Source: Candidatus Kerfeldbacteria bacterium | GTDB lineage: Bacteria > Patescibacteriota > Patescibacteriia > SBBC01 | Assembly: GCA_016207275.1 (NCBI GenBank) | Contig: JACQPY010000013.1 | Location: forward strand, 20,285-84,284 | Reading direction: 5' to 3' | Length of the DNA: 64,000 nucleotides | Part shown: piece by piece, positions 1-8,421 of the stretch | How positions within the stretch are numbered: position 1 is the stretch's first letter | Layout: each line of letters begins with the position of its first letter | The notes under the pieces: model-generated | What the model saw: the letters and a program-made list of their open reading frames with translations, nothing else | Told to the model about the DNA's origin: nothing | Database searches by the model: none | Program-made: the position numbers and the translations under genes

Positions 1-305
1 TCGTCGAAAAAGACAAGGCGCCAAACGATACCAATCGAAATATTGAACCAACGCGCGAAGACGATACCGCCATCGACATAACCCCGTCTTTACCTTGGAC
101 GAATGGTGCGGCAGCTGGCAAGTATGATTTGCAATCGACCATCACGCATGAACTCGGCCACTGGTTGAGTCTGGATGATCTGGTTGGCGACGGTGAACGA
201 ATGCTGACGATGTACCACGAACCACTCGAGAACAGCATTGAGCACCGGAGCCTGGGCACCGGCGATGTCCGAGGAGCCCGGATTATTTACGACGGCGGGC
301 AATAG
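1..305 (+). CDS. 3' end of a matrixin-like zinc metallopeptidase; the gene continues upstream of the window
   Basis: Frame 3 is open from the window edge to TAG at 303-305. The translation ends ...DLQSTITHELGHWLSLDDLVGDG..., a HExxH zinc-binding helix close to the matrixin/M10 DLQSVAAHEFGH motif. The ORF track misses it because it has no in-window start. Confidence 0.45.
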   Translation, partial: VEKDKAPNDTNRNIEPTREDDTAIDITPSLPWTNGAAAGKYDLQSTITHELGHWLSLDDLVGDGERMLTMYHEPLENSIEHRSLGTGDVRGARIIYDGGQ

Positions 306-498
306 AGGATTCGTGACCTCGCCGGGCAGTGCATTTATAGTCAAGCCTCAAATCCAAACACCGGTCATGCCGGATTGAATACTCCCTGAGCTCGCTCCCA
401 AGCCACTTCAGGTTCTTGATCACCCTGCATTCGCCGGCTTTCTTTCCCGCGATGCTGCTCCGAGTGTAGCCTCTATCATCTAGGGTATACTGAGTGAT

Positions 499-1215
499 AT
501 GGACCTCCTCGGCCTCGCCCTCCTGACCCTCGTTGCCAGCGGCGTCGGCACCATGACCGGTTTCGGTACCTCGACCATCATGGTGCCGGTGGTGGCTTTG
601 TTCCTACCCTTTCCGGTTACGCTGGTGCTGGTCGGCATCGTCCACTGGTTCGGCAATGTCTGGAAAATGCTGCTGTTCCGCGGCGGGTTTTCCCGAAAGC
701 TCCTGCTCTGGTTTGGGCTGCCCGGAGTCATCACTAGTTTTCTCGGCGCCAGCCTGACCATTCGAACGGACGCTGATCTACTCCAACGCCTGCTCGGGTA
801 TTTGTTAATTGGTTACGTCCTGTTCCTGATGCTCAAACCAAAATTCAAACTCAGCCAAACGCCCGCGACGGCGATGACCGGCGGCGCGCTGTCTGGCCTC
901 ATGGCCGGAATTTTCGGGATCGGCGGCGCAGTTCGCAGTGCTGCCTTGTCTGCTTTCAACTTGCCGGCAGCCACCTACCTCTTCACGGCTGGCGCGATCG
1001 GTTTGGTGATTGATTCAAGTCGGTTGGTGACGTACCTCGGTGAGGGAGTGACACTGCCGGCACGTTTGCTGGCTGGGCTGCTTCTGTTTGTGCCGATTTC
1101 GTTCTTGGGCGCCAAAATCGGGGAGCGGCTGGTCAAACGCGTGCCGGCGGAGAAGTTCCGGTGGGTGGTAGCGGTGTTTCTGTTTATCGTTGGAGTTTGG
1201 CTCGCCGTCAAATAG
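499..1215 (+). CDS. TauE/SafE (DUF81) family anion exporter-like membrane protein
   Basis: 238 aa, multi-TM and glycine-rich (MTGFGTSTIMVPVVALFL...; second half GIFGIGGAVRSAALSAF), typical of the TauE/SafE duplicated 4-TM fold. A TATACT -10 box lies 8 nt upstream of the ATG. Confidence 0.65.
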   Translation: MDLLGLALLTLVASGVGTMTGFGTSTIMVPVVALFLPFPVTLVLVGIVHWFGNVWKMLLFRGGFSRKLLLWFGLPGVITSFLGASLTIRTDADLLQRLLGYLLIGYVLFLMLKPKFKLSQTPATAMTGGALSGLMAGIFGIGGAVRSAALSAFNLPAATYLFTAGAIGLVIDSSRLVTYLGEGVTLPARLLAGLLLFVPISFLGAKIGERLVKRVPAEKFRWVVAVFLFIVGVWLAVK

Positions 1216-1237
1216 ATCGTCGGCACGCAGGTACTTC

Positions 1238-1483
1238 CTGTTTATCCTTACATGCGCCGACGGCACGCTGTATACCGGGATCACGGTTGATCTCAAACGA
1301 CGAGTTGCCGAACACAACGCCTCGCGCCTGGGCGCGAAATACATATAGGGCGCCGGCCGGTACAATTGGTGTATAGCAAGAAATTCCCTTCTCGTTCCAC
1401 GGCCTTAAAAGGGGAGGCCCGGATCAAAGCCCTTTCGAAGACGGAAAAGCTACGGCTGGTCGTTAGAGTTTAGGGCTATCGTT
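1238..1483 (+). pseudogene. GIY-YIG nuclease family gene (UPF0213-like), disrupted by a stop/frameshift and lacking a start codon
   Basis: One frame reads LFILTCADGTLYTGITVDLKRRVAEHNASRLGAKYI*. The -1 frame continues (H)IGRRPVQLVYSKKFPSRSTALKGEARIKALSKTEKLRLV, which together match the GIY-YIG consensus YILRC.DGSLYTGIT.DL.RRL.EHN.G.GAKYTRGRRPVKLVY...R.EA..RE..IK.L. No in-frame ATG/GTG. Confidence 0.6.
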
Positions 1484-1543
1484 CATTGGGGCAGTTTTCT
1501 CCTACTGTGAAGCTAATAGCCAACTTGACTAGTTTTTAATAAT

Positions 1544-1582
1544 GGTGTATAGTTTTGTATAGATTTCATGGTTAATGTATAG
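1544..1582 (+). promoter_or_regulatory. Three direct TGTATAG repeats overlapping the start of the HTH-GHKL gene; a fourth GGTGTATAG at 1368-1376
   Basis: GGTGTATAG 1544-1552, TGTATAG 1556-1562 and TGTATAG 1576-1582, in an AT-rich region, with a TAGATT-like -10 about 9 nt before the ATG at 1575. Candidate operator or iteron. Confidence 0.3.
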
Positions 1583-2342
1583 CTTTAATAGAAATTCTTT
1601 GCAGAAAAGTCCAAATAATAACATGATACCGATAAGTAAAGCAGCCAAACTGCTCGGTGTTTCTATACAAACCCTGCGCCGTTGGGACAAGGCCGGCACG
1701 CTTCGACCGGCCTATGTTTCCCCCGGGGGGCACCGCTACTACGCCGCAAGTGCCCTTGAGCAGTACACGCGGAATTTATGGGTGCAAGCGCATGCCTGGG
1801 CGGCCAGCACATCCCCGCTGCCGCTGACGCCGGACCTCTATTGCCAGACCAGCTCCATATTTCAGGCTCGGTTGTCATCGTTCGAAACAGGGCTGCAGCG
1901 GATTCCCGATTTGAAAGCCGGCGAACGTTTTTCACTGGTCGTGTCCATGGTCGGCGAAATCGGCGATAATGCCTATGCCCACAATCTCGGCAACTGGCCG
2001 GACATCCCCGGTGTCTTCTTCGCCGCCGATCTCAATCGTCGTCAGGTGGTCGTAGCGGATCGCGGACTCGGCGTGTTAATAACGCTGCGGCGGGTCAAAC
2101 CGGAACTGCGTGATGACGCTGAAGCATTGCGGGTGGCGTTTACCGAAACCATTTCCGCGCGGGCGCCGGAACGGCGGGGAAACGGACTCAAGTACGTCCG
2201 TCGGCTCATCGCCACCGGCAGTTTTCACCTGCGGTTCCAGTCTGGTCAGGACGAACTATTCCTGCACGCCGGCAGCGACGCGCTCGATATCCATCCGGCC
2301 GGCACGCCAATCCGCGGCACGATCGCGTTCTTAACATTTTAA
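1575..2342 (+). CDS. MerR/excisionase-type HTH DNA-binding domain fused to a GHKL (HATPase_c) ATPase / Ser-kinase-like domain
   Basis: N-terminus ISKAAKLLGVSIQTLRRWDKAGTLRP...GGHRYY is a MerR-type HTH. The C-terminus carries the HATPase_c boxes: N-box GEIGDNAYAH, G1 DRGLGV, G2 RRGNGLKYV. The start could instead be the ATG at 1623. Confidence 0.6.
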   Translation: MYSFNRNSLQKSPNNNMIPISKAAKLLGVSIQTLRRWDKAGTLRPAYVSPGGHRYYAASALEQYTRNLWVQAHAWAASTSPLPLTPDLYCQTSSIFQARLSSFETGLQRIPDLKAGERFSLVVSMVGEIGDNAYAHNLGNWPDIPGVFFAADLNRRQVVVADRGLGVLITLRRVKPELRDDAEALRVAFTETISARAPERRGNGLKYVRRLIATGSFHLRFQSGQDELFLHAGSDALDIHPAGTPIRGTIAFLTF

Positions 2343-2642
2343 TTGCTTATGATTATACGATTGGTGCAATTCGGGAATTTGCTCACGTCGCGGCAACTCG
2401 GACGCGAAGCATTCGCCGCCTTCCGTGCGACGCTTGAGCGCGAGCGCAGGGCCGAGCCGATCGTGGTCGATTTCGAAGGCGTCACCACCTTTTCTCCTTC
2501 CTGGGGAGACGAATTTTTAGGCGCGCTGCTTGATGTTGTGGACGGCCCGTTGATCGTCAGGCAGGCGACAAATCCATCGGTCCAAGCGACCCTGGAACTG
2601 CTGGAAAAAATCTATGGACCGCGGTTTAGGCGGGAGCCATAA
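2343..2642 (+). CDS. STAS-like small protein (DUF4325-type), partner of the upstream GHKL ATPase
   Basis: 99 aa starting MIIRLVQFGNLLTSRQLGREAFAAF...PIVVDFEGV, resembling the DUF4325/STAS-like family that usually sits next to GHKL kinases. Its start codon immediately follows the upstream stop. Confidence 0.5.
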   Translation: MLMIIRLVQFGNLLTSRQLGREAFAAFRATLERERRAEPIVVDFEGVTTFSPSWGDEFLGALLDVVDGPLIVRQATNPSVQATLELLEKIYGPRFRREP

Positions 2643-2920
2643 TGGATGCTGCCGGCGCGCTAGATCTCAAAGTGAAAGTAGCTGCTTAAACCCTCAATAA
2701 CTACTATTGGTTGTTGAGGGGCATGCTGATGGGACGCTTGCAGCACCAGACTAGGAAGGGCTTGGCGCTGGGGATCCCACGACGAGCTGGTTGGCGGAAG
2801 TATCCGACGCTAAAATTGACCGAGACACGGTTGTCTATGTTTAGGGCGGCGAGTTGTAATTTAAAAATCGAGAGGTATAGACTGGAAACACCAGCCCACG
2901 ACACATTTTCACAGAAACTA

Positions 2921-3142
2921 ATGCCCAAGTCTTCCATTTCTTCCAGGTTAAATAATGCCGATCTTCGGCGTCGTAAAACACATCGTCGTACGGACGAGCA
3001 GGCATTTTTTGACGACTGTCCGATATGTCGGGCCAGGCGCGACGGCCGAGCCGATACTTACGAAGACCTGATCGCGGCGTTCAGGGAAGCGAAGCGTCTT
3101 TATCCGGACAGGACGTTTACTGGCGAAGATGAAACGTCGTAG
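2921..3142 (+). CDS. Small CxxC protein (hypothetical); the long ORF 2711..3142 has a low-complexity N-terminus, so an internal ATG start is assumed
   Basis: The C-terminal part ...EQAFFDDCPICRARRDGRADTYEDLIAAFREAKRLYPDRTF looks protein-like. The region is AT-rich. Confidence 0.3.
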   Translation: MPKSSISSRLNNADLRRRKTHRRTDEQAFFDDCPICRARRDGRADTYEDLIAAFREAKRLYPDRTFTGEDETS

Positions 3143-3160
3143 TTTGCGCATTCACTATCT

Positions 3161-3697
3161 ATGACGATCGCGGACAACCTCTATTACGATGCCATGGAAT
3201 GCCTTGCGAACGGCCGCCGGGCAAAGGCCAGACAACTACTGCTTAGGGCTGTCGGGCAGGAACCAGATTACATGCAAACATACGTCGGCCTGACCGCTGT
3301 CTATGAGGAAGAGGGGAAGAAGAAAAAGGCGAGGGAATGCATTAATCTGGCCTTCCAGCTGACGCGGAAGAAGTTTCAGCGGTGGCCGAAGGAAATGCAC
3401 TGGGGGTACATCGAAAACCGCCAGTTTTTACGAGCTATCGCCAATAAAGCCACGGCCCACCATGAAGACGGCGAGCATGAAGCGGCCGAGAAACTCTACC
3501 GACTTATCCTTAAACTCAACCCTAACGACAATCAGGGCATCCGCTACTTGTTGGCCGGCCTGTACGCCGGAATAGGCCCGAATGATGTTAATGAGTATAT
3601 GGAAGAAGGGAATCGAACTCAAAACTGGAGCAAAATTGAAAAGCTGCTGACGACGCAAAACGCCAAACGACATTTTTGGAAAGAACCGTCCGGATAA
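3161..3697 (+). CDS. TPR-repeat protein
   Basis: 178 aa with helical TPR-like repeats (AKARQLLLRAVGQEPDYMQTYVGLTAVYEEEGKKKKAREC...EAAEKLYRLILKLNPNDNQGIRYLLAGLYAG). Confidence 0.55.
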   Translation: MTIADNLYYDAMECLANGRRAKARQLLLRAVGQEPDYMQTYVGLTAVYEEEGKKKKARECINLAFQLTRKKFQRWPKEMHWGYIENRQFLRAIANKATAHHEDGEHEAAEKLYRLILKLNPNDNQGIRYLLAGLYAGIGPNDVNEYMEEGNRTQNWSKIEKLLTTQNAKRHFWKEPSG

Positions 3698-3936
3698 GTG
3701 AAGCTCCGCCGATCGCCGCCAATGGTCACCGCCTTTGGCGGGATCCCGCCCGAGGCGGTGACGGGACCCCGCATCCGCCCCGACCTTCCCCCTATACGCG
3801 GGGACCGGACGCTCGATACTGAGCTTAACCAGCGACGTCTGGTAGCTGCAGGTCGGACACTCGAAGTACAGCCACTGCTTGTCCGTGAAGCCGTCGACTT
3901 TCCATCCGTCGTTGTGCGGCCCCCAGGTCAGGGAGC

Positions 3937-5175
3937 TTGTTCGAGACCGCTGACGGCTTGCCGTACATTGCCGAGCATCCGCGCTATCCTCAAAAGCTGT
4001 ACGTGGCCACCGGCTTCAACGGCAACGGTATGGTCATGAGAGCGCTGGCGGGGATGATCCTGGCTGACCTGGCCACTGGCCGGGTTATTGTTCACGCCAA
4101 GCTTTTCGATTTTTCCCGAACTAGTGCTACGATGGGGACGATGGAAACCTCCGCACTGGTCAGCGCACCAGCTCAACCAACACCGGCAGCACGCCGTAGT
4201 GGGTGGCGGTGGATTGCCACGCTCGTCTACGTGTTCGTGCTGGTCCTGCCCGGCTACGTCTTTTTCAATCAGCGCGGCGGTTTTTCCTTCCTGGCCGGGC
4301 TTGATTTTAAAACATTTAACCTCGTCATCTTTCCGCTGGTCGGACTGTACGCCTTTACGCTGCTGTGGTCGCAGTTCGTCATCGGGGCGGCGCGTTCAGT
4401 GCTGCGCAGCGTTGTGCATCCGGCGATCATCACCTTCCATCGCCGGCAGGGCGTCCTGATTTTTCTGCTGGCCTGGCTGCATCCGACGCTGCGGTTTTTT
4501 GGCATCGGTCTGGATCAGTACTTCAAGAGTTGGAACGTCGCGCCGAGTCTCGTTCCCTATCTGTGGCTTGGCTATCTGCAATTGTTTTTACTAACGCTCA
4601 CGGCGGGCACGGCGTTGCTGCGCAAGCTGCCGTGGCTGAAAACCCGCTGGCACACCATTCATTACGTGAACTACGGGGTCTTCGTTATGGTGTGGATCCA
4701 CTCGTGGTTTTTAGGATCCGACGTGCGCTCGACCAACCTCCGCTACCTGTGGTGGTTTTTTGCAGTCACGGCGCTGGCAGCCACGGCCGTCAGGATTCGC
4801 CAGATCATACTGAAACGGAAATCCCAGGGCACCGCTGGGGAACGCGCGAGTTCAAGTCCTGAACCGGGAGGAGGGTTCGTGCCGATCGCCACCGTTGATC
4901 AATTCAACGACCGGACAATGATCTGCGCGACCGTGAACGGAAAGCCGCTGGCGCTATTCAAGGTGGGGGAGCAGTACTTCTGCTTGGACAACACCTGCTC
5001 GCACGCTGGCGGACCGTTGTGCGAAGGCCTGCTCGAGGGCACGGTCATCGAGTGTCCACTGCACGCGTCACGCTTTGACGTTACCACCGGTGCGGTCGTG
5101 GCCGGGCCGGCCCACGAACCGCAGCGGACGTACCCAATTCGGCTGAACGGCTCGCGCATCGAGGTGGCGATGTGA
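3937..5175 (+). CDS. Membrane b-type-heme (ferric-reductase-like) domain fused to a C-terminal Rieske [2Fe-2S] domain. The true start is probably the ATG near 4123; the first ~60 codons look like a relic of an FAD-dependent oxidoreductase C-terminus
   Basis: C-terminus has CSHAGGPLCEG...ECPLHASRF, a CxH...CxxH Rieske motif. The middle has 6 TM helices with conserved His (HPAIITFHRRQGVLIFLLAWLHP). The N-terminal TADGLPYIAEHPRYPQKLYVATGFNGNGMVMRALAGMILADLATGR matches the C-terminal consensus of DAO-family FAD oxidoreductases. Confidence 0.55.
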   Translation: MFETADGLPYIAEHPRYPQKLYVATGFNGNGMVMRALAGMILADLATGRVIVHAKLFDFSRTSATMGTMETSALVSAPAQPTPAARRSGWRWIATLVYVFVLVLPGYVFFNQRGGFSFLAGLDFKTFNLVIFPLVGLYAFTLLWSQFVIGAARSVLRSVVHPAIITFHRRQGVLIFLLAWLHPTLRFFGIGLDQYFKSWNVAPSLVPYLWLGYLQLFLLTLTAGTALLRKLPWLKTRWHTIHYVNYGVFVMVWIHSWFLGSDVRSTNLRYLWWFFAVTALAATAVRIRQIILKRKSQGTAGERASSSPEPGGGFVPIATVDQFNDRTMICATVNGKPLALFKVGEQYFCLDNTCSHAGGPLCEGLLEGTVIECPLHASRFDVTTGAVVAGPAHEPQRTYPIRLNGSRIEVAM

Positions 5176-5690
5176 CTGCCCGACTACGCCTGACCTCTAT
5201 CGGCGTCTTCGTCCTCGGCGTGGCGGTGGCGGTGCTGTTGGTCCGCTTACCGGTCGGTCATAGTCTGGTCAATCGCCTGGACAACTGGGGCTACCTGACC
5301 GCCCTGGTCGGCGGCTTGCTCTATACGACCAGTTTCACCTCGGCCACCGGCACCGTTGTTTTGGCGCACGTCGGGGAGAGCCTCAACCCGGTTTTAGCGG
5401 CGGTTATTGGCGGACTCGGTTCGTTGCTCTATGATCTGACCATTTTCACCGTGTTCGCACGCCAGTTTGAACGCCGGCCGGCGCTACACCGGCTGGTCGA
5501 TTTTTTCCAGCGTCATCGCCGGCTGCGCTGGACCGCTGGCTTAAGCGGCGCACTGATCATTGCCTCGCCGCTGCCGGACGAATTGGGAATTGCTTTGCTC
5601 GACGGCGCCGGCACGAAAGAACGCTACTTTATTCCCTTGTCATTCGGGTTCAACGTTCTGGGTATTTTAGCGATCGTCGGTCTGTTCTAG
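5172..5690 (+). CDS. Small hydrophobic membrane protein (hypothetical), overlapping the previous gene by ATGTGA
   Basis: 172 aa with about 4 TM segments; no family recognised. Confidence 0.45.
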   Translation: MTARLRLTSIGVFVLGVAVAVLLVRLPVGHSLVNRLDNWGYLTALVGGLLYTTSFTSATGTVVLAHVGESLNPVLAAVIGGLGSLLYDLTIFTVFARQFERRPALHRLVDFFQRHRRLRWTAGLSGALIIASPLPDELGIALLDGAGTKERYFIPLSFGFNVLGILAIVGLF

Positions 5691-5691
5691 T

Positions 5692-6699
5692 CTAGACGTT
5701 GACCACGTTGATCGGCTGGCCGGCTTGGAAGGCCTTGATGTTGGCAATGGTGGTGGTGAGAATGCGTTCCAGCGCTTCCTGCGAGTTGAAGGCATTGTGC
5801 GGCGTGATGATGACGTTCGGCTGTTCCAGCAAAATGTGATTGGCCAGCACGGTTTCCAGGTCGCACTGTTGCTTAAAAGCGTCAGTCAGCAGTTCGCGTT
5901 CTTCCGTGATCTCGCACTCTTCTTCGAGCACGTCTAGTCCGGCCGCGGCGACCGTCCCGTTTTTCAACGCTCGAACCAGTGCTTTGGTGTCAATTAAACC
6001 GCCACGCGCCGTGTTGATGATGACTACCCCACGCTTCATCTTCTTGAACGCCGCGTCGTTCAGCAGGTGCTTGGTTGATGGTAAAAATGGAACGTGCAAA
6101 GAGATAATGTCTGACTGCGGCAAAAGGTCATTGAACGAAACGTAGCTAAAGCCGAGTTTCTTGGCGAGTTCAAGGTTCGGCTTCGGATCAAAGGCCAGCA
6201 CGTGCATGCCAAAAGCGACGGCGTATTGTGCGACGTGCGAGCCAATATGGCCGCTGCCGATGAGGCCGATAGTTTTGCCTTTGAGGTCGAAGCCGCGCAA
6301 ATCATCGAGTCGGAAGTCGCCTCGCCTGGTACGCTCAATTGAGGGGATGAGTTTGCGTGACAGCGCCAGCACCAAGGCCACGGTGTGCTCGGCCACGGTG
6401 TTCTCGCCGTAGGTCGGCACGTTCGATACGAGGACGCCGCGTTTCGCACAGGCCTGGAGATCAATGTGGTCGTAGCCGGTCGAACGGGTGGTAACGAACT
6501 TCAGATTCGGTATTCGCTCCAACACCGCTTCGGTTATAGCCGAATGGATGAAAGCGACCAAGATGGAGACGTTCTTCAGCCGGTCCGCCGGAATTTTATC
6601 AATCGTGGCAGCCGAGAACCCGATTGAACCGTCAAACCGTCCTTTCAGGAACTCCTGTTCCCAGGGTTCGCGCTCTAAGAATAGAATTGGCTGGTTCAT
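5692..6699 (-). CDS. D-isomer-specific 2-hydroxyacid dehydrogenase (D-lactate/glycerate dehydrogenase family)
   Basis: NAD-binding GLIGSGHIGSHVAQYA, catalytic region ...ARGGLIDTKALVRAL...TPHNAF. The ORF-track N-terminal extension is rejected and the start is set at MNQPILF (ATG at 6697-6699). Confidence 0.8.
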   Translation of the reverse strand: MNQPILFLEREPWEQEFLKGRFDGSIGFSAATIDKIPADRLKNVSILVAFIHSAITEAVLERIPNLKFVTTRSTGYDHIDLQACAKRGVLVSNVPTYGENTVAEHTVALVLALSRKLIPSIERTRRGDFRLDDLRGFDLKGKTIGLIGSGHIGSHVAQYAVAFGMHVLAFDPKPNLELAKKLGFSYVSFNDLLPQSDIISLHVPFLPSTKHLLNDAAFKKMKRGVVIINTARGGLIDTKALVRALKNGTVAAAGLDVLEEECEITEERELLTDAFKQQCDLETVLANHILLEQPNVIITPHNAFNSQEALERILTTTIANIKAFQAGQPINVVNV

Positions 6700-6750
6700 G
6701 GTTTCAGTATACCGAAAAAAAGTCAATATTGAAATACGAACTGACAAAAC

Positions 6751-6779
6751 TTGATTTATCGGCAGCACAGTGCTACAAT
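6751..6779 (+). promoter_or_regulatory. Sigma70-type promoter: TTGATT, 17 bp spacer, TACAAT
   Basis: Consensus-like -35 and -10 with a 17-bp spacer just upstream of the asparaginase-like gene. The -10 ends 3 nt before the ATG at 6782, so the real start codon may be downstream. Confidence 0.5.
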
Positions 6780-6781
6780 GA

Positions 6782-7816
6782 ATGCGCCGTCGCAATTTAT
6801 TAAAGACGGCTCGATTTTCAAAGGAAGTGGCTAAACTACCAAGAAAACGCGTGGCCTTGCTGTTCAGCGGCGGGACAATGTTGTCCGAAAAGCCGCGGCC
6901 CTGGGAAATCGTCAAGAAGCCCGAGCACATGCGTCGCTGGCTCGACAACATGAGCGAAATCAACGTCATCGCCGATGTCGAGCCGGTTTTTATCACCGGC
7001 AAGGGAACCTTGGAGATCGGGCCGGACGAGTGGCTGGCCATGGCTGAAGCAGTGCGCCGGCTGCACCAGTCAGTGGATGGATTCGTGGTGTTGCACGGCG
7101 TGGAAACTCTGCACTACACGGCCAATGCCTTGAGTTTGATGCTGCGCAATCTGCCGTTCCCGGCGGTGGTGTCCGGTTCGCCCTTGCGGATGCCTGGTTT
7201 GGGCGTGCGGCAGGTGGAGTTTGCCGCCCGCGCCAACATTATCAACGCGGTTCAGGTAGCGGCCGCTGACGTGGCCGGGGTATGCGTGGTTTTCGGCAAT
7301 CGGATCATGCCCGCTGCCCAAGTCCAACCGGTCATGGCTGAAGGCGCATTTCAGCTAGTAACCGCCGAGACGGCGCTCCTCGGCCGGGTGGATTTCGGCA
7401 CCAAGCTGTTCGAGAACCGAACCAAGCGATCAAACCGCAAGCCGCGCTGGTCCATCCACCTTGACCAGCATGTGTTCGTGACCACCATCACGCCGGCGGT
7501 GTCGGCCAGCTCTTTCCGCCTGGCTATCCGCGGTGATTTCCACGCCATCCTGGCCCGTCTCCATGAATTGGTGTCCTTGCCGGATTATGTCGAACGCGAA
7601 TTCCGGCGGGCCTTAAAGCACGGCATTCCGGTGGTTCTCTCATCTCGCCATCCGCTGCCGGGCATGGTGGAGTTCATTTCGCTCCTTGGCGTCAGCCCGA
7701 GTATGGCTGTCGTCAAGACCATGTGGGCGCTCGGCGCCACGCGTGAGGCGGGGAAGCTTCGCAAACTGCTTGAGCAGAACGTTGCCGGCGAATTCATCCA
7801 GGGAGGTGCCGCATGA
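6782..7816 (+). CDS. L-asparaginase family protein (type I-like)
   Basis: RVALLFSGGTM resembles the asparaginase TGGTIAG motif, and VVLHGVETLHYTANALSLML resembles HGTDT. Start is uncertain (GTG 6846 possible). Confidence 0.55.
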   Translation: MRRRNLLKTARFSKEVAKLPRKRVALLFSGGTMLSEKPRPWEIVKKPEHMRRWLDNMSEINVIADVEPVFITGKGTLEIGPDEWLAMAEAVRRLHQSVDGFVVLHGVETLHYTANALSLMLRNLPFPAVVSGSPLRMPGLGVRQVEFAARANIINAVQVAAADVAGVCVVFGNRIMPAAQVQPVMAEGAFQLVTAETALLGRVDFGTKLFENRTKRSNRKPRWSIHLDQHVFVTTITPAVSASSFRLAIRGDFHAILARLHELVSLPDYVEREFRRALKHGIPVVLSSRHPLPGMVEFISLLGVSPSMAVVKTMWALGATREAGKLRKLLEQNVAGEFIQGGAA

Positions 7817-8421
7817 TACGGGCATACTTCTACGGTCCGCCGACGACCAAGCGTGATCTGAATGACGTCTACGAAGTAATCAAGGACGTCTGTCAGCGCG
7901 CCGATGTCGCGCTCTCGACCAATACCGAAGCGGAAGAAATTAACTTACCGTCCGAAACCATTGCCGAGCATCGGGCCACCGGCGTGCCGCTGCTCGACGC
8001 GATGCAGGCCATTTTGGTGGAAGGTTCAACGCCTGATCCGCAGGCCGGCTATTTACTGGCCTATGCCTTGGCCGAGAAACGACCGCTGCTGTATCTCTAC
8101 AGCCGCGGCGAGGTGGCGCCGGACGTGCTGCGCTACCTGAATCTGAAGGATATTCCCAAGCACATCGTCATTGCCACCTATACCAAAGACCGGGTAGAGA
8201 AGCTGGTCGAGGATTTCCTGCGTCGGCTCGGCGACATCAAGGTCCGCGAAGTGGCGCGGATAAAGTTTACGCTTCGGTTGACGAAAAGCCTGGACGACTT
8301 CCTTGATTTCAAAACGCGGAACACCAAGCTGTCGAAAGCTGACTTCCTCCGCGAGGACATGGACAAGCGGATGAAGGCGGATGAGGAGTTTCAGCAGCAC
8401 TTGCGGAAAAGGAAGGGATAG
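7813..8421 (+). CDS. Hypothetical protein (possibly a nucleoside 2-deoxyribosyltransferase-like fold)
   Basis: 202 aa, starting MIRAYFYGPP, with a charged helical C-terminus; start overlaps the upstream stop. Confidence 0.4.
   Translation: MIRAYFYGPPTTKRDLNDVYEVIKDVCQRADVALSTNTEAEEINLPSETIAEHRATGVPLLDAMQAILVEGSTPDPQAGYLLAYALAEKRPLLYLYSRGEVAPDVLRYLNLKDIPKHIVIATYTKDRVEKLVEDFLRRLGDIKVREVARIKFTLRLTKSLDDFLDFKTRNTKLSKADFLREDMDKRMKADEEFQQHLRKRKG

What the first reader, a model, noticed from the sequence alone, without database searches (positions are those of the whole stretch)
1440..3700. AT-rich islet: MerR-HTH fused to a GHKL ATPase, with a STAS-like (DUF4325-type) partner, a CxxC mini-protein and a TPR protein
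The GHKL domain has the N, G1 and G2 boxes of RsbW/SpoIIAB-type Ser-kinase anti-sigma factors, and the adjacent 99-aa protein is STAS-like. Together they make a partner-switching pair, but here the kinase is fused to a DNA-binding MerR/excisionase-type HTH. That implies a direct phosphorylation- or ATP-controlled DNA-binding switch, not regulation through a sigma factor. The block is about 45-50% GC against roughly 60% flanks, starts next to a decayed GIY-YIG nuclease gene, and carries TGTATAG direct repeats on its own start codon. It was therefore probably acquired horizontally. HTH-ATPase and small-partner modules are common in mobile and defence islands. I cannot assign it to a named system.
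Basis: partly seen in the sequence, partly recalled or inferred. Interest (0 to 1): 0.5.

Follow-up and report, generated by a model that had tools for sequence, protein, structure and literature searches.

The report
DNA-binding kinase with STAS partner
Two adjacent genes, conserved across the ultrasmall Patescibacteria, encode a DNA-binding protein fused to a SpoIIAB-like serine kinase and its small STAS partner; the DNA-binding part reads repeats on its own promoter, so the pair is an uncharacterised self-regulating switch, not a recently acquired defence islet.

Summary
The core observation holds. Gene A (1575/1623..2342) is a MerR/excisionase-type HTH fused to a GHKL domain. Pfam cannot see that domain, but its AlphaFold model is closest to SpoIIAB and RsbW. 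Gene B (2349..2642) is a DUF4325 STAS protein closest to SpoIIAA. B directly follows A in all 89 related loci and in the window. The TGTATAG repeats are real. TGYATAGRTTT direct repeats, phased by helical turns, overlap the promoter of gene A in 70 of 84 distinct loci. The third base of the repeat covaries perfectly with one recognition-helix residue: Asp with TGC in 38/38 loci, non-Asp with TGT in 26/26, over at least 13 independent switches. So the fused HTH reads its own promoter. The horizontal-transfer and defence-island reading is not supported. A and B have host-like GC, the family spans Patescibacteria with taxon-coherent clades, neighbours are not conserved, PADLOC finds no defence-system match, only an HTH-only hit (mad1), and only one viral contig carries a relative. 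The "CxxC mini-protein" and "TPR protein" are one unrelated gene split by an in-frame TAG. The closest characterised systems are CapK/CapS and VapK/VapS (2026). This is a new architectural variant, with the HTH on the kinase and a bare STAS partner.

The parts
1525..1553 (+). sigma-70-like promoter of the A-B operon: -35 TTGACT (1525-1530), 17-nt spacer, -10 TATAGT (1548-1553)
   Evidence: Consensus scan gives 10 of 12 matches. The same promoter is the best one. This is a prediction only.
1546..1556 (+). operator repeat R1, TGTATAGTTTT, overlapping the -10 hexamer
   Evidence: The family consensus is tTGYATAGRTTT.
1556..1566 (+). operator repeat R2, TGTATAGATTT (perfect consensus), at the predicted transcription start, 10 nt after R1
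1576..1586 (+). operator repeat R3, TGTATAGCTTT, 20 nt after R2; it contains the ATG at 1575-1577
   Evidence: Family spacings cluster near multiples of a helical turn (10, 20-21, 30-31, 41-42 nt).
1575..2342 (+). gene A: HTH-GHKL kinase. The ORF runs from ATG 1575; alternative starts are TTG 1599 and ATG 1623, the last being NCBI's 239-aa call
1632..1760 (+). MerR/excisionase/BldC-type winged HTH. Its recognition helix is S-I-Q-T-L-R-R-W, and Gln matches the TGT-type operator
1830..2339 (+). SpoIIAB/CapK-like GHKL (Bergerat-fold) kinase domain with its N-terminal helices: N box 1956-1985, G1 box 2058-2072, G2 box 2175-2192
2349..2642 (+). gene B: 97-aa DUF4325 STAS-like partner and presumed substrate. 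The candidate phospho-acceptor segment S49-P50-S51 is at 2493-2501
   Evidence: B follows A in all 89 related loci examined and in the window.

Best explanation
A and B form a self-contained, autoregulated two-gene module that is widespread in Patescibacteria.

Shown by computation:
- The N-terminal MerR/BldC-type HTH of A reads phased direct repeats TGYATAGRTTT that overlap the core promoter of its own operon.
- The C-terminal domain of A is a SpoIIAB/RsbW/CapK-type GHKL domain with every ATP-binding motif invariant.
- B is a DUF4325 STAS protein, in the same Pfam family as the kinase substrate VapS. It always sits directly downstream of A.

Inferred:
- A binds the repeats head-to-tail, as BldC and Xis do, and represses the A-B promoter by occlusion.
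- B docks on the kinase domain and is phosphorylated on the conserved Ser/Thr at the N-terminus of its helix alpha-2 (S49 or S51).
- The B versus phospho-B state, or the ATP versus ADP state, changes the oligomeric state or DNA affinity of A. The kinase-STAS exchange is thus read out directly at DNA, not through a sigma factor.

The input signal and any targets beyond the operon itself are unknown.
For: - Motifs: the N, G1, G2 and G3 residues are invariant in 34 sequences of about 50% identity.
- Linkage: B follows A on the same strand in all 89 related loci examined and in the window, mostly with a gap of -7 to +27 nt. The pairing also holds for GHKL variants without an HTH or with a different wHTH.
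- Operator: 70 of 84 distinct loci have forward TGYATAG copies within 200 nt upstream, and 59 have two or more. Background is 0.012 per 200 nt. Spacings are 10, 20-21, 30-31 and 41-42 nt.
- Covariation: Asp goes with TGC in 38/38 loci and non-Asp with TGT in 26/26 (Fisher 1.7e-18). This involves at least 13 independent switches on a tree built from the GHKL part only. Variant operators go with variant recognition helices.
- Negative control: variants lacking the MerR-type HTH have no TGYATAG copies upstream.
- Promoter overlap: in 54 of 58 loci with a recognisable promoter, a repeat overlaps -38..+15.
- Specificity: in a metagenome-wide scan, 27 of 50 strict double sites are followed by an A gene, and no other gene recurs.
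- Relation to a characterised system: VapS is DUF4325 (E 2.7e-17). hhalign of the B family against VapS gives 75% probability. CapS S54 aligns with B S51. CapK phosphorylates CapS and VapK is proposed to phosphorylate VapS (PMC13373217).
Against: - There is no biochemical evidence. Kinase activity, B phosphorylation and DNA binding are all inferred.
- Sequence profiles do not detect the GHKL domain. hhalign matches to CapK and VapK are weak (42-49% probability).
- The phospho-acceptor register is ambiguous between S49 and S51. One homolog has Gly at position 51.
- No phosphatase, no third partner and no regulon were found. The 64-kb window has no other operator cluster.
- GHKL+DUF4325 pairs without an HTH exist. 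The kinase-STAS pair may therefore have an output that does not involve DNA, with the HTH serving only for autoregulation.
- Repression versus activation rests on consensus promoter predictions, and the repeat itself resembles a -35 hexamer.
Confidence: 0.6

Rival explanations
1. Third-partner model. The GHKL domain of A works as a true anti-sigma-type factor that sequesters another protein, such as a sigma factor, and B releases that protein by partner switching. The HTH only autoregulates the operon's dosage, as in toxin-antitoxin modules.
For: GHKL+DUF4325 pairs with no HTH exist, one of them in a housekeeping context between def and fmt. No operator clusters were found away from A genes. 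The closest folds are anti-sigma factors.
Against: No sigma-factor or other conserved third gene lies next to the pair in 76 distinct loci. A DNA-binding domain was fused to this kinase at least twice independently, once MerR-type and once a different wHTH. That argues for a functional link between the kinase and DNA.
Confidence: 0.2
2. Conflict-system model. A-B is a stress or phage sensor of the CapKS/VapKSC type, possibly responding to ssDNA or DNA damage, that controls an immune or toxin effector encoded elsewhere or differently in each genome.
For: The only characterised DUF4325 protein, VapS, is an antitoxin and kinase substrate in an anti-phage system. The kinase-then-STAS gene order and the autoregulation are shared with CapKS. 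Some neighbours are TA or Abi genes: PemK, AbiEii and Fic.
Against: There is no conserved downstream effector. PADLOC gives only an HTH hit. A lacks the internal STAS domain that forms the predicted ssDNA-binding site of CapK. Sequence conservation is high and clades are taxon-coherent. IMG/VR holds one relative.
Confidence: 0.12
3. One reading: a recently acquired AT-rich islet made of four functionally linked genes (HTH-ATPase, STAS, CxxC mini-protein, TPR protein).
For: The 1440-3700 region is 53.5% GC, the 25th lowest of 618 windows of the same size. It is flanked by damaged genes: a frameshifted GIY-YIG, a nonsense-interrupted CxxC-TPR gene and a 5'-truncated DAO domain.
Against: A and B have host-like GC (59.7% and 57.1%) and GC3. 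The CxxC and TPR ORFs are one gene, and no relative of it appears among the conserved flanking families near A-B in 76 distinct loci. The family is inherited largely vertically.
Confidence: 0.05
4. The GHKL domain is an ATP-driven clamp or ATPase of the MutL/GyrB/MORC type acting on DNA, and not a protein kinase. B would be a regulatory subunit, not a substrate.
Confidence: 0.08

Closest known systems
CapK/CapS and VapK/VapS/VapC (Chambers et al., EMBO J 2026, PMC13373217)
   Same: Both have a SpoIIAB-like GHKL kinase gene immediately followed by a STAS-protein gene. The kinase carries an N-terminal HTH, as in CapK. The STAS partner has a conserved Ser/Thr at the start of helix alpha-2. The promoter is autoregulated. 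VapS and B belong to the same Pfam family, DUF4325, and hhalign of B against VapS gives 75% probability. The N-box and G1 regions of A resemble those of CapK and VapK.
   Different: A has no internal STAS domain, which in CapK and VapK forms the predicted ssDNA-binding site. B has neither CapS's wHTH nor VapS's inhibitory C-terminal tail. Here the operator is read by the kinase's own HTH, whereas in CapKS the repressor is CapS and the role of CapK's HTH is unknown. No immune operon or toxin follows the pair. The family occurs in Patescibacteria in unrelated contexts. Its operator is direct repeats, not palindromes.
SpoIIAB-SpoIIAA / RsbW-RsbV partner-switching modules
   Different: No sigma factor or PP2C phosphatase gene was seen next to the pair. 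A carries a fused DNA-binding domain. Pfam HATPase_c_2 and STAS do not reach significance, and hhalign of B against SpoIIAA finds nothing.
BldC / Xis-type MerR-like DNA-binding domains (PDB 6ama, 6amk)
   Different: BldC is a stand-alone domain of about 68 aa. Here the domain is fused to a kinase. The NCBIfam score of 20.9 is far below the cut-off of 77.
Canonical MerR-family regulators (MerR, CueR, BmrR)
   Same: The N-terminal HTH matches the Pfam MerR model (E 4e-12) and gives PDB hits to BmrR, BrlR and TipA.
   Different: A has no long coiled-coil dimerisation helix: only a 10-residue helix follows the wing. The effector domain is replaced by a kinase. The operators are direct repeats, not a palindrome inside a 19-20-bp spacer, and the predicted spacers are 16-18 bp.

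Membership tests
GHKL (Bergerat-fold) ATPase/kinase superfamily | Bergerat alpha/beta fold | tested here: met
GHKL (Bergerat-fold) ATPase/kinase superfamily | N box (E-x3-N), G1 box (D-x-G-x-G) and G2 box (G-x-G-L) for Mg-ATP binding | tested here: met
   E112, N116, H120, D146, G148, G150, G186, G188 and L189 are invariant in 34 homologs.
GHKL (Bergerat-fold) ATPase/kinase superfamily | Match to Pfam HATPase_c or HATPase_c_2 | tested here: not met
   The window protein has no hit at E <= 1. Only 1 of 34 homologs hits, at E 0.04-0.06. A PDB profile search finds only HTH matches.
SpoIIAB/RsbW anti-sigma Ser kinases (partner switching) | Single-domain GHKL closest to SpoIIAB/RsbW, without DHp or transducer domains | tested here: met
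SpoIIAB/RsbW anti-sigma Ser kinases (partner switching) | Adjacent STAS antagonist with a phosphorylatable Ser at the N-terminus of helix alpha-2 | tested here: inconclusive
   The STAS fold and gene adjacency are met. Position 49 is S/T in 32/32 sequences and position 51 is S in 31/32. The register relative to SpoIIAA S58, CapS S54 and VapS S48 differs by one residue between alignments. Phosphorylation was not tested.
SpoIIAB/RsbW anti-sigma Ser kinases (partner switching) | Binds and inhibits a cognate sigma factor, usually encoded in the operon | tested here: not met
   No sigma-factor gene was seen in the Pfam-annotated gene lists of the places shown or among the recurrent neighbour families, and no flanking family recurs in more than 7 of 76 distinct loci. 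Binding itself cannot be tested here.
CapK/CapS | CapK architecture HTH-STAS-GHKL | tested here: not met
   The secondary structure of the A model shows the HTH (1-62), then helices 77-121, then the GHKL sheet. There is no beta-alpha-beta STAS domain between them.
CapK/CapS | CapS architecture STAS-wHTH, acting as the DNA-binding repressor | tested here: not met
   B is 97 aa and consists of a STAS domain only.
CapK/CapS | Located directly upstream of an immune operon (CBASS, Bub, Thoeris and others) | tested here: not met
   The downstream genes are unrelated between loci. No PADLOC family recurs more than twice in 136 neighbours.
DUF4325 (PF14213, STAS-like; includes VapS) | Score above the Pfam gathering threshold | tested here: inconclusive
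   The window's B scores 20.8-20.9 bits against a cut-off of 23. However, 31 of 32 family members match at E <= 1e-3, best 2.4e-8. hhalign against VapS gives 75% probability, E 2.6e-5.
MerR family transcription regulators | N-terminal winged HTH of MerR type | tested here: met
   Pfam MerR scores 46 bits against a cut-off of 28.2. All 34 homologs match.
MerR family transcription regulators | Long antiparallel coiled-coil dimerisation helix and C-terminal effector-binding domain | tested here: not met
   Only a short helix (52-61) follows the wing. The C-terminal part is the GHKL domain.
MerR family transcription regulators | Palindromic operator within an over-long (19-20 bp) promoter spacer | tested here: not met
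   The sites are same-orientation direct repeats. Predicted spacers are 16-18 bp.
Known anti-phage defence systems (PADLOC-DB 2.0) | Match of A or B to a defence-system protein model | tested here: not met
   The only hit is to the 60-residue HTH of mad1, covering A residues 17-62. B has no hit.

The most novel reading that the evidence does not exclude
A-B is an ancestral, Patescibacteria-wide sigma-independent partner-switching transcription factor. A Ser-kinase domain gates its own fused DNA-binding domain through a bare STAS partner. It would sense energy charge (ATP/ADP) or nucleic-acid stress, and it would control a regulon elsewhere in these reduced genomes, possibly linked to host association or dormancy. 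It would also explain the so far unexplained HTH of CapK.
Probability: 0.25. Interest if true: 0.75.

Novelty: new variant of a known kind. Interest (0 to 1): 0.6.

Why it matters
- Patescibacteria are a large share of bacterial diversity, and I know of almost no characterised regulators in them. This module comes with a predicted operator, a one-residue/one-base specificity rule (Asp for TGC, Gln or Met for TGT) and a predicted kinase-substrate pair. All of these can be tested directly in vitro without cultivating the organisms.
- It extends the kinase+STAS regulatory logic described in 2026 for immune operons (CapKS, VapKSC) to a different architecture and a non-immune context. It also suggests what an HTH on such a kinase can do.
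- It exposes an annotation gap. Databases call these proteins plain "MerR family regulators" because no sequence profile detects the kinase domain.

Tried and rejected
- Pfam, NCBIfam and PADLOC on the single proteins found only the HTH, a sub-threshold DUF4325 hit and TPR repeats.
- phmmer and hmmsearch against PDB with A and with the A family found only MerR-type HTH hits.
- hhalign of the B family against SpoIIAA found nothing. I had first verified the SpoIIAA sequence against 1auz.
- I looked for conserved neighbours by all-against-all BLAST of flanking ORFs, and by Pfam and PADLOC scans of 136 immediate neighbours. None was found, so I rejected the four-gene islet and a fixed effector.
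- I looked for further operator clusters, which would indicate a regulon. The window has none. The 89 loci have only a duplicated segment in L085 and one pair in L052.
- The metagenome-wide pattern scan was too loose in its first half-site and returned mostly chance hits. After tightening, 27 of 50 sites precede an A gene and the rest are heterogeneous.
- The viral contig scan returned 1 relative.
- Rfam on 1-8000 found nothing.
- Literature searches for DUF4325, PF14213 and partner switching in CPR found no functional work on this family.
- I considered the reverse-strand TGTATAG at 1663-1669 as an operator. It lies in the codons for S-I-Q and lacks the TTT tail, so I left it unexplained.
Full report
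WHAT IS THERE

The window comes from a Candidatus Kerfeldbacteria (Patescibacteria/CPR) MAG. The 100%-identical database proteins are annotated there as a "MerR family DNA-binding transcriptional regulator" (239 aa) and a hypothetical protein (97 aa).
- A: 1575..2342. In-frame alternative starts are TTG 1599 and ATG 1623. NCBI uses 1623, and another gene caller uses 1575.
- B: 2349..2642.
- A CxxC-containing ORF ending at 3142.
- A TPR ORF at 3161..3697.

DOMAINS

Sequence profiles see only part of the picture.
- A's N-terminus is a MerR/HTH_17 winged HTH (Pfam E 4.6e-12).
- No HATPase_c-type model matches the window protein at E <= 1. Only 1 of 34 homologs gives a marginal hit. A profile of the family finds only HTH proteins in the PDB.
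- The alignment of 34 homologs at about 50% identity shows the GHKL motifs as invariant columns: E112-x3-N116..H120, D146-R-G-x-G150, R185-G-N-G-L-K190 and G232.

Structure prediction fills the gap.
- The AlphaFold2 model of A (pLDDT 90.9) has a Bergerat fold (Foldseek probability 1.0 to GyrB and Hsp90 N-domains).
- 31 of 32 B-family members match Pfam DUF4325, although the window's own copy falls just under the cut-off.

THE PAIR IS THE UNIT

Judging by the record titles of the 80 loci kept, they come mostly from Patescibacteria lineages:
- Parcubacteria classes
- Microgenomates
- Peregrinibacteria and Gracilibacteria
- Doudna-, Kerfeld-, Uhr- and Magasanikbacteria

These relatives are 44-52% identical to the window protein. 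In all 89 related loci and in the window, a B homolog follows A on the same strand, usually with a gap of -7 to +27 nt.

Nothing else is conserved.
- Among 76 distinct loci, the commonest flanking family (AAA_14/DUF4143) appears in 7, at varying positions.
- The 136 immediate neighbours hit 168 Pfam families, none more than 4 times. They mix DnaK, MreB, NrdD, PolA and H+-PPase with a few AbiEii and Fic genes.

A search of 1.84 billion cluster representatives with the GHKL part alone returned only 338 clusters. They include:
- forms of about 195 aa without any HTH;
- a form with a different N-terminal stretch that reads like an ArsR/MarR-type wHTH, though Pfam finds no domain in it.

Each such variant whose downstream region was available (P0258, P0277, P0260) is also followed by a DUF4325 gene. 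The invariant core is thus kinase plus DUF4325. A DNA-binding domain was added to it at least twice.

THE TGTATAG REPEATS ARE A CONSERVED OPERATOR

All five TGTATAG copies in the 64-kb window lie in 1370-1669, against 1.5 expected for the whole window. Three are direct repeats at 1546, 1556 and 1576, over a promoter-like TTGACT-17-TATAGT (1525-1553).

Across 84 distinct upstream regions:
- 70 carry forward-oriented TGYATAG within 200 nt of the start.
- 59 carry at least two copies, against a background of 0.012 per 200 nt.
- Spacings are 10 (15 times), 20-21 (44 times), 30-31 and 41-42 nt. These are close to whole helical turns.

The extended consensus is tTGYATAGRTTT. Lineages without it have their own repeat variants, such as TGAGTAGGTTT, TAC[AC]TAGGTTT, GGTAGATAT and TTTAGCAGATT.

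The third base of the repeat covaries perfectly with the residue before T-L-R-R-W in the recognition helix.
- The residue is Asp in 38/38 loci with TGC operators.
- It is Met, Gln, Ala, Asn or Thr in 26/26 loci with TGT operators (Fisher 1.7e-18).
- This reflects at least 13 independent switches on a tree built from the kinase part only.
- Variant helices accompany variant operators.
- GHKL variants that lack the MerR-type HTH have no such repeats.

This is strong comparative evidence that the fused HTH reads these repeats. In the window, Gln pairs with TGT, as the rule predicts.

NOT AN ACQUIRED ISLET

- A is 59.7% GC and B is 57.1%, against a window mean of 58.5%. Only the 274-nt promoter gap (42%) and the downstream gene (52-53%) are lower.
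- The A tree groups Microgenomates together, Peregrini- with Gracilibacteria, Paceibacteria-type lineages together, and likewise the Staskawicz-, Nealson- and Magasanik- pairs.
- PADLOC recognises only the HTH.
- IMG/VR holds one relative in 2.9 million contigs.

The CxxC "mini-protein" and the TPR protein share a reading frame. In relatives of about 232 aa they form a single protein with an N-terminal FDDCPICxAM motif. In the window a TAG at 3140-3142 splits it. This gene does not appear among the conserved flanking families near A-B in the other loci.

The GIY-YIG gene is intact apart from one frameshift near 1343-1350. Joining the two frames gives a full-length Pfam match (E 2e-14).

CLOSEST KNOWN SYSTEM

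A weak PDB hit of the B profile to "Escherichia VapS" led to Chambers et al., EMBO J 2026 (PMC13373217).
- CapK (HTH-STAS-GHKL, SpoIIAB-like) phosphorylates CapS (STAS-wHTH repressor) on S54 after activation by ssDNA. This de-represses adjacent immune operons.
- VapK (STAS-GHKL) is proposed to phosphorylate VapS (a STAS antitoxin), which would release the VapC toxin.

Using the sequences from the paper's appendix:
- VapS is a clear DUF4325 member (E 2.7e-17).
- The B family aligns to VapS with 75% hhalign probability.
- A aligns weakly to the kinase cores of CapK and VapK, including the segment after G1: DSGLGIATTLKR in CapK against DRGLGVLITLRR in the window protein.
- CapS S54 aligns with B S51, while the ungapped VapS alignment places S48 at B P50, between S49 and S51. 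B has S/T at position 49 in 32/32 sequences and S at position 51 in 31/32.

The Patescibacteria module differs in four ways:
- A has no internal STAS domain, which forms the predicted ssDNA site of CapK.
- B has no wHTH and no C-terminal tail.
- The operator is read by the kinase's own HTH.
- No effector operon follows the pair.

The CapKS paper mentions neither DUF4325, MerR nor Patescibacteria. I found no functional literature on this family.

MECHANISM AND CONFIDENCE

Shown computationally:
- a sequence-specific HTH with its operator on its own promoter;
- an intact SpoIIAB-type ATP-binding kinase fold;
- an obligatory DUF4325 STAS partner.

Inferred: autorepression, phosphorylation of B at S49 or S51, and control of A's DNA binding or oligomerisation by the state of B or of the bound nucleotide.

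The main rival is that the kinase-STAS pair acts on a third protein and the HTH only sets operon dosage. The HTH-less variants favour this rival, as does the absence of other operator clusters in the window, in about 0.9 Mb of flanks and in a metagenome-wide scan.

VERDICT

The partner-switch-on-DNA idea is supported. The horizontal-transfer and defence-island framing and the four-gene grouping are not. This is a new architectural variant of a known kind of system. It is widespread in Patescibacteria, mis-annotated in databases and readily testable. Interest is 0.6.

Noticed in passing
window 2921-3697 (+): The CxxC ORF and the TPR ORF are in one frame. In relatives of about 232 aa (P0398, P0401, P0402, P0405) they form one protein with an N-terminal FDDCPICxAM motif followed by TPR repeats. 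Here a TAG at 3140-3142 splits it, and NCBI calls only the 167-aa TPR part. It could be a nonsense mutation, a sequencing error or a genuine short form. Some homologs of about 190 aa lack the CxxC part.
   Followed up: yes
window 1190-1474 (+): The small GIY-YIG gene is intact except for one frameshift near 1343-1350, at 'tacatatagg'. Joining the two frames gives a full-length Pfam match (positions 2-76 of 78, E 2e-14). This could be a real pseudogene or an assembly error.
   Followed up: yes
window 3937-5175 (+): The 412-aa ORF begins with only the last ~40 residues of a DAO (FAD oxidoreductase) domain, followed by membrane helices and a Rieske domain. The rest of the DAO domain is missing upstream. 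This may be a 5'-truncated gene or a rearrangement boundary. Together with the two damaged genes above, the A-B operon sits among three defective genes.
   Followed up: partly
window 1370-1376 (+) and 1663-1669 (-): Two further TGTATAG copies lie close to the operator cluster. One is inside the GIY-YIG remnant (codons L-V-Y-S), 176 nt upstream of R1. The other is on the reverse strand inside A, in the codons for S-I-Q of the recognition helix. Both lack the TTT tail. Two extra copies this near are unlikely by chance given 1.5 expected in 64 kb, but I have no explanation. They might be auxiliary sites.
   Followed up: partly
L085 12045-12380: In a Staskawiczbacteria contig, a second operator pair 5-6 kb downstream of A-B is followed by an orphan B paralog with no A gene. 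The upstream gene end is duplicated too, so this is a segmental duplication that lost A.
   Followed up: partly
L052 888-920: An operator-like pair (TGCATAGATTT twice, 19 nt apart) lies about 180 nt upstream of an AAA_14/DUF4143 ATPase gene. That family is also the most frequent, though still rare (7 of 76), neighbour of A-B. It is a possible regulon member.
   Followed up: no
L212 4001-4873; L216 891-1765; L214 3445-4548: The same GHKL domain occurs without any HTH (about 195 aa), and with a different N-terminal stretch that reads like a wHTH although Pfam finds no domain in it (276 aa). Each of these is followed by a DUF4325 gene and has no TGYATAG repeats upstream. One sits between def and fmt, next to rpsP and trmD.
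   Followed up: partly
L015 and L017: Two A-B copies that are sister to each other in the tree occur on two contigs of the same MAG (CAZWLI01). Some genomes therefore carry paralogous modules.
   Followed up: no
A residues 56-83 (window ~1788-1871): The segment between the HTH and the kinase core has invariant A56, W59, C74 and F80 and near-invariant Y73 and R83 (motif YCxT..F.ARL). The HTH-less variants keep it. A single invariant Cys and Trp here could mark a ligand or partner site, comparable to CapK W68 at its ssDNA site.
   Followed up: no
loci L013, L032, L036, L050, L059, L069 (record titles): Several contigs carrying the module are labelled Gammaproteobacteria, Saccharibacteria, Bdellovibrionales, Methylomirabilis or Elusimicrobia. 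Their A proteins nest among Patescibacteria sequences in the tree. The labels are probably placeholder or mis-binned taxonomy. I therefore did not claim presence in Saccharibacteria or outside CPR.
   Followed up: partly
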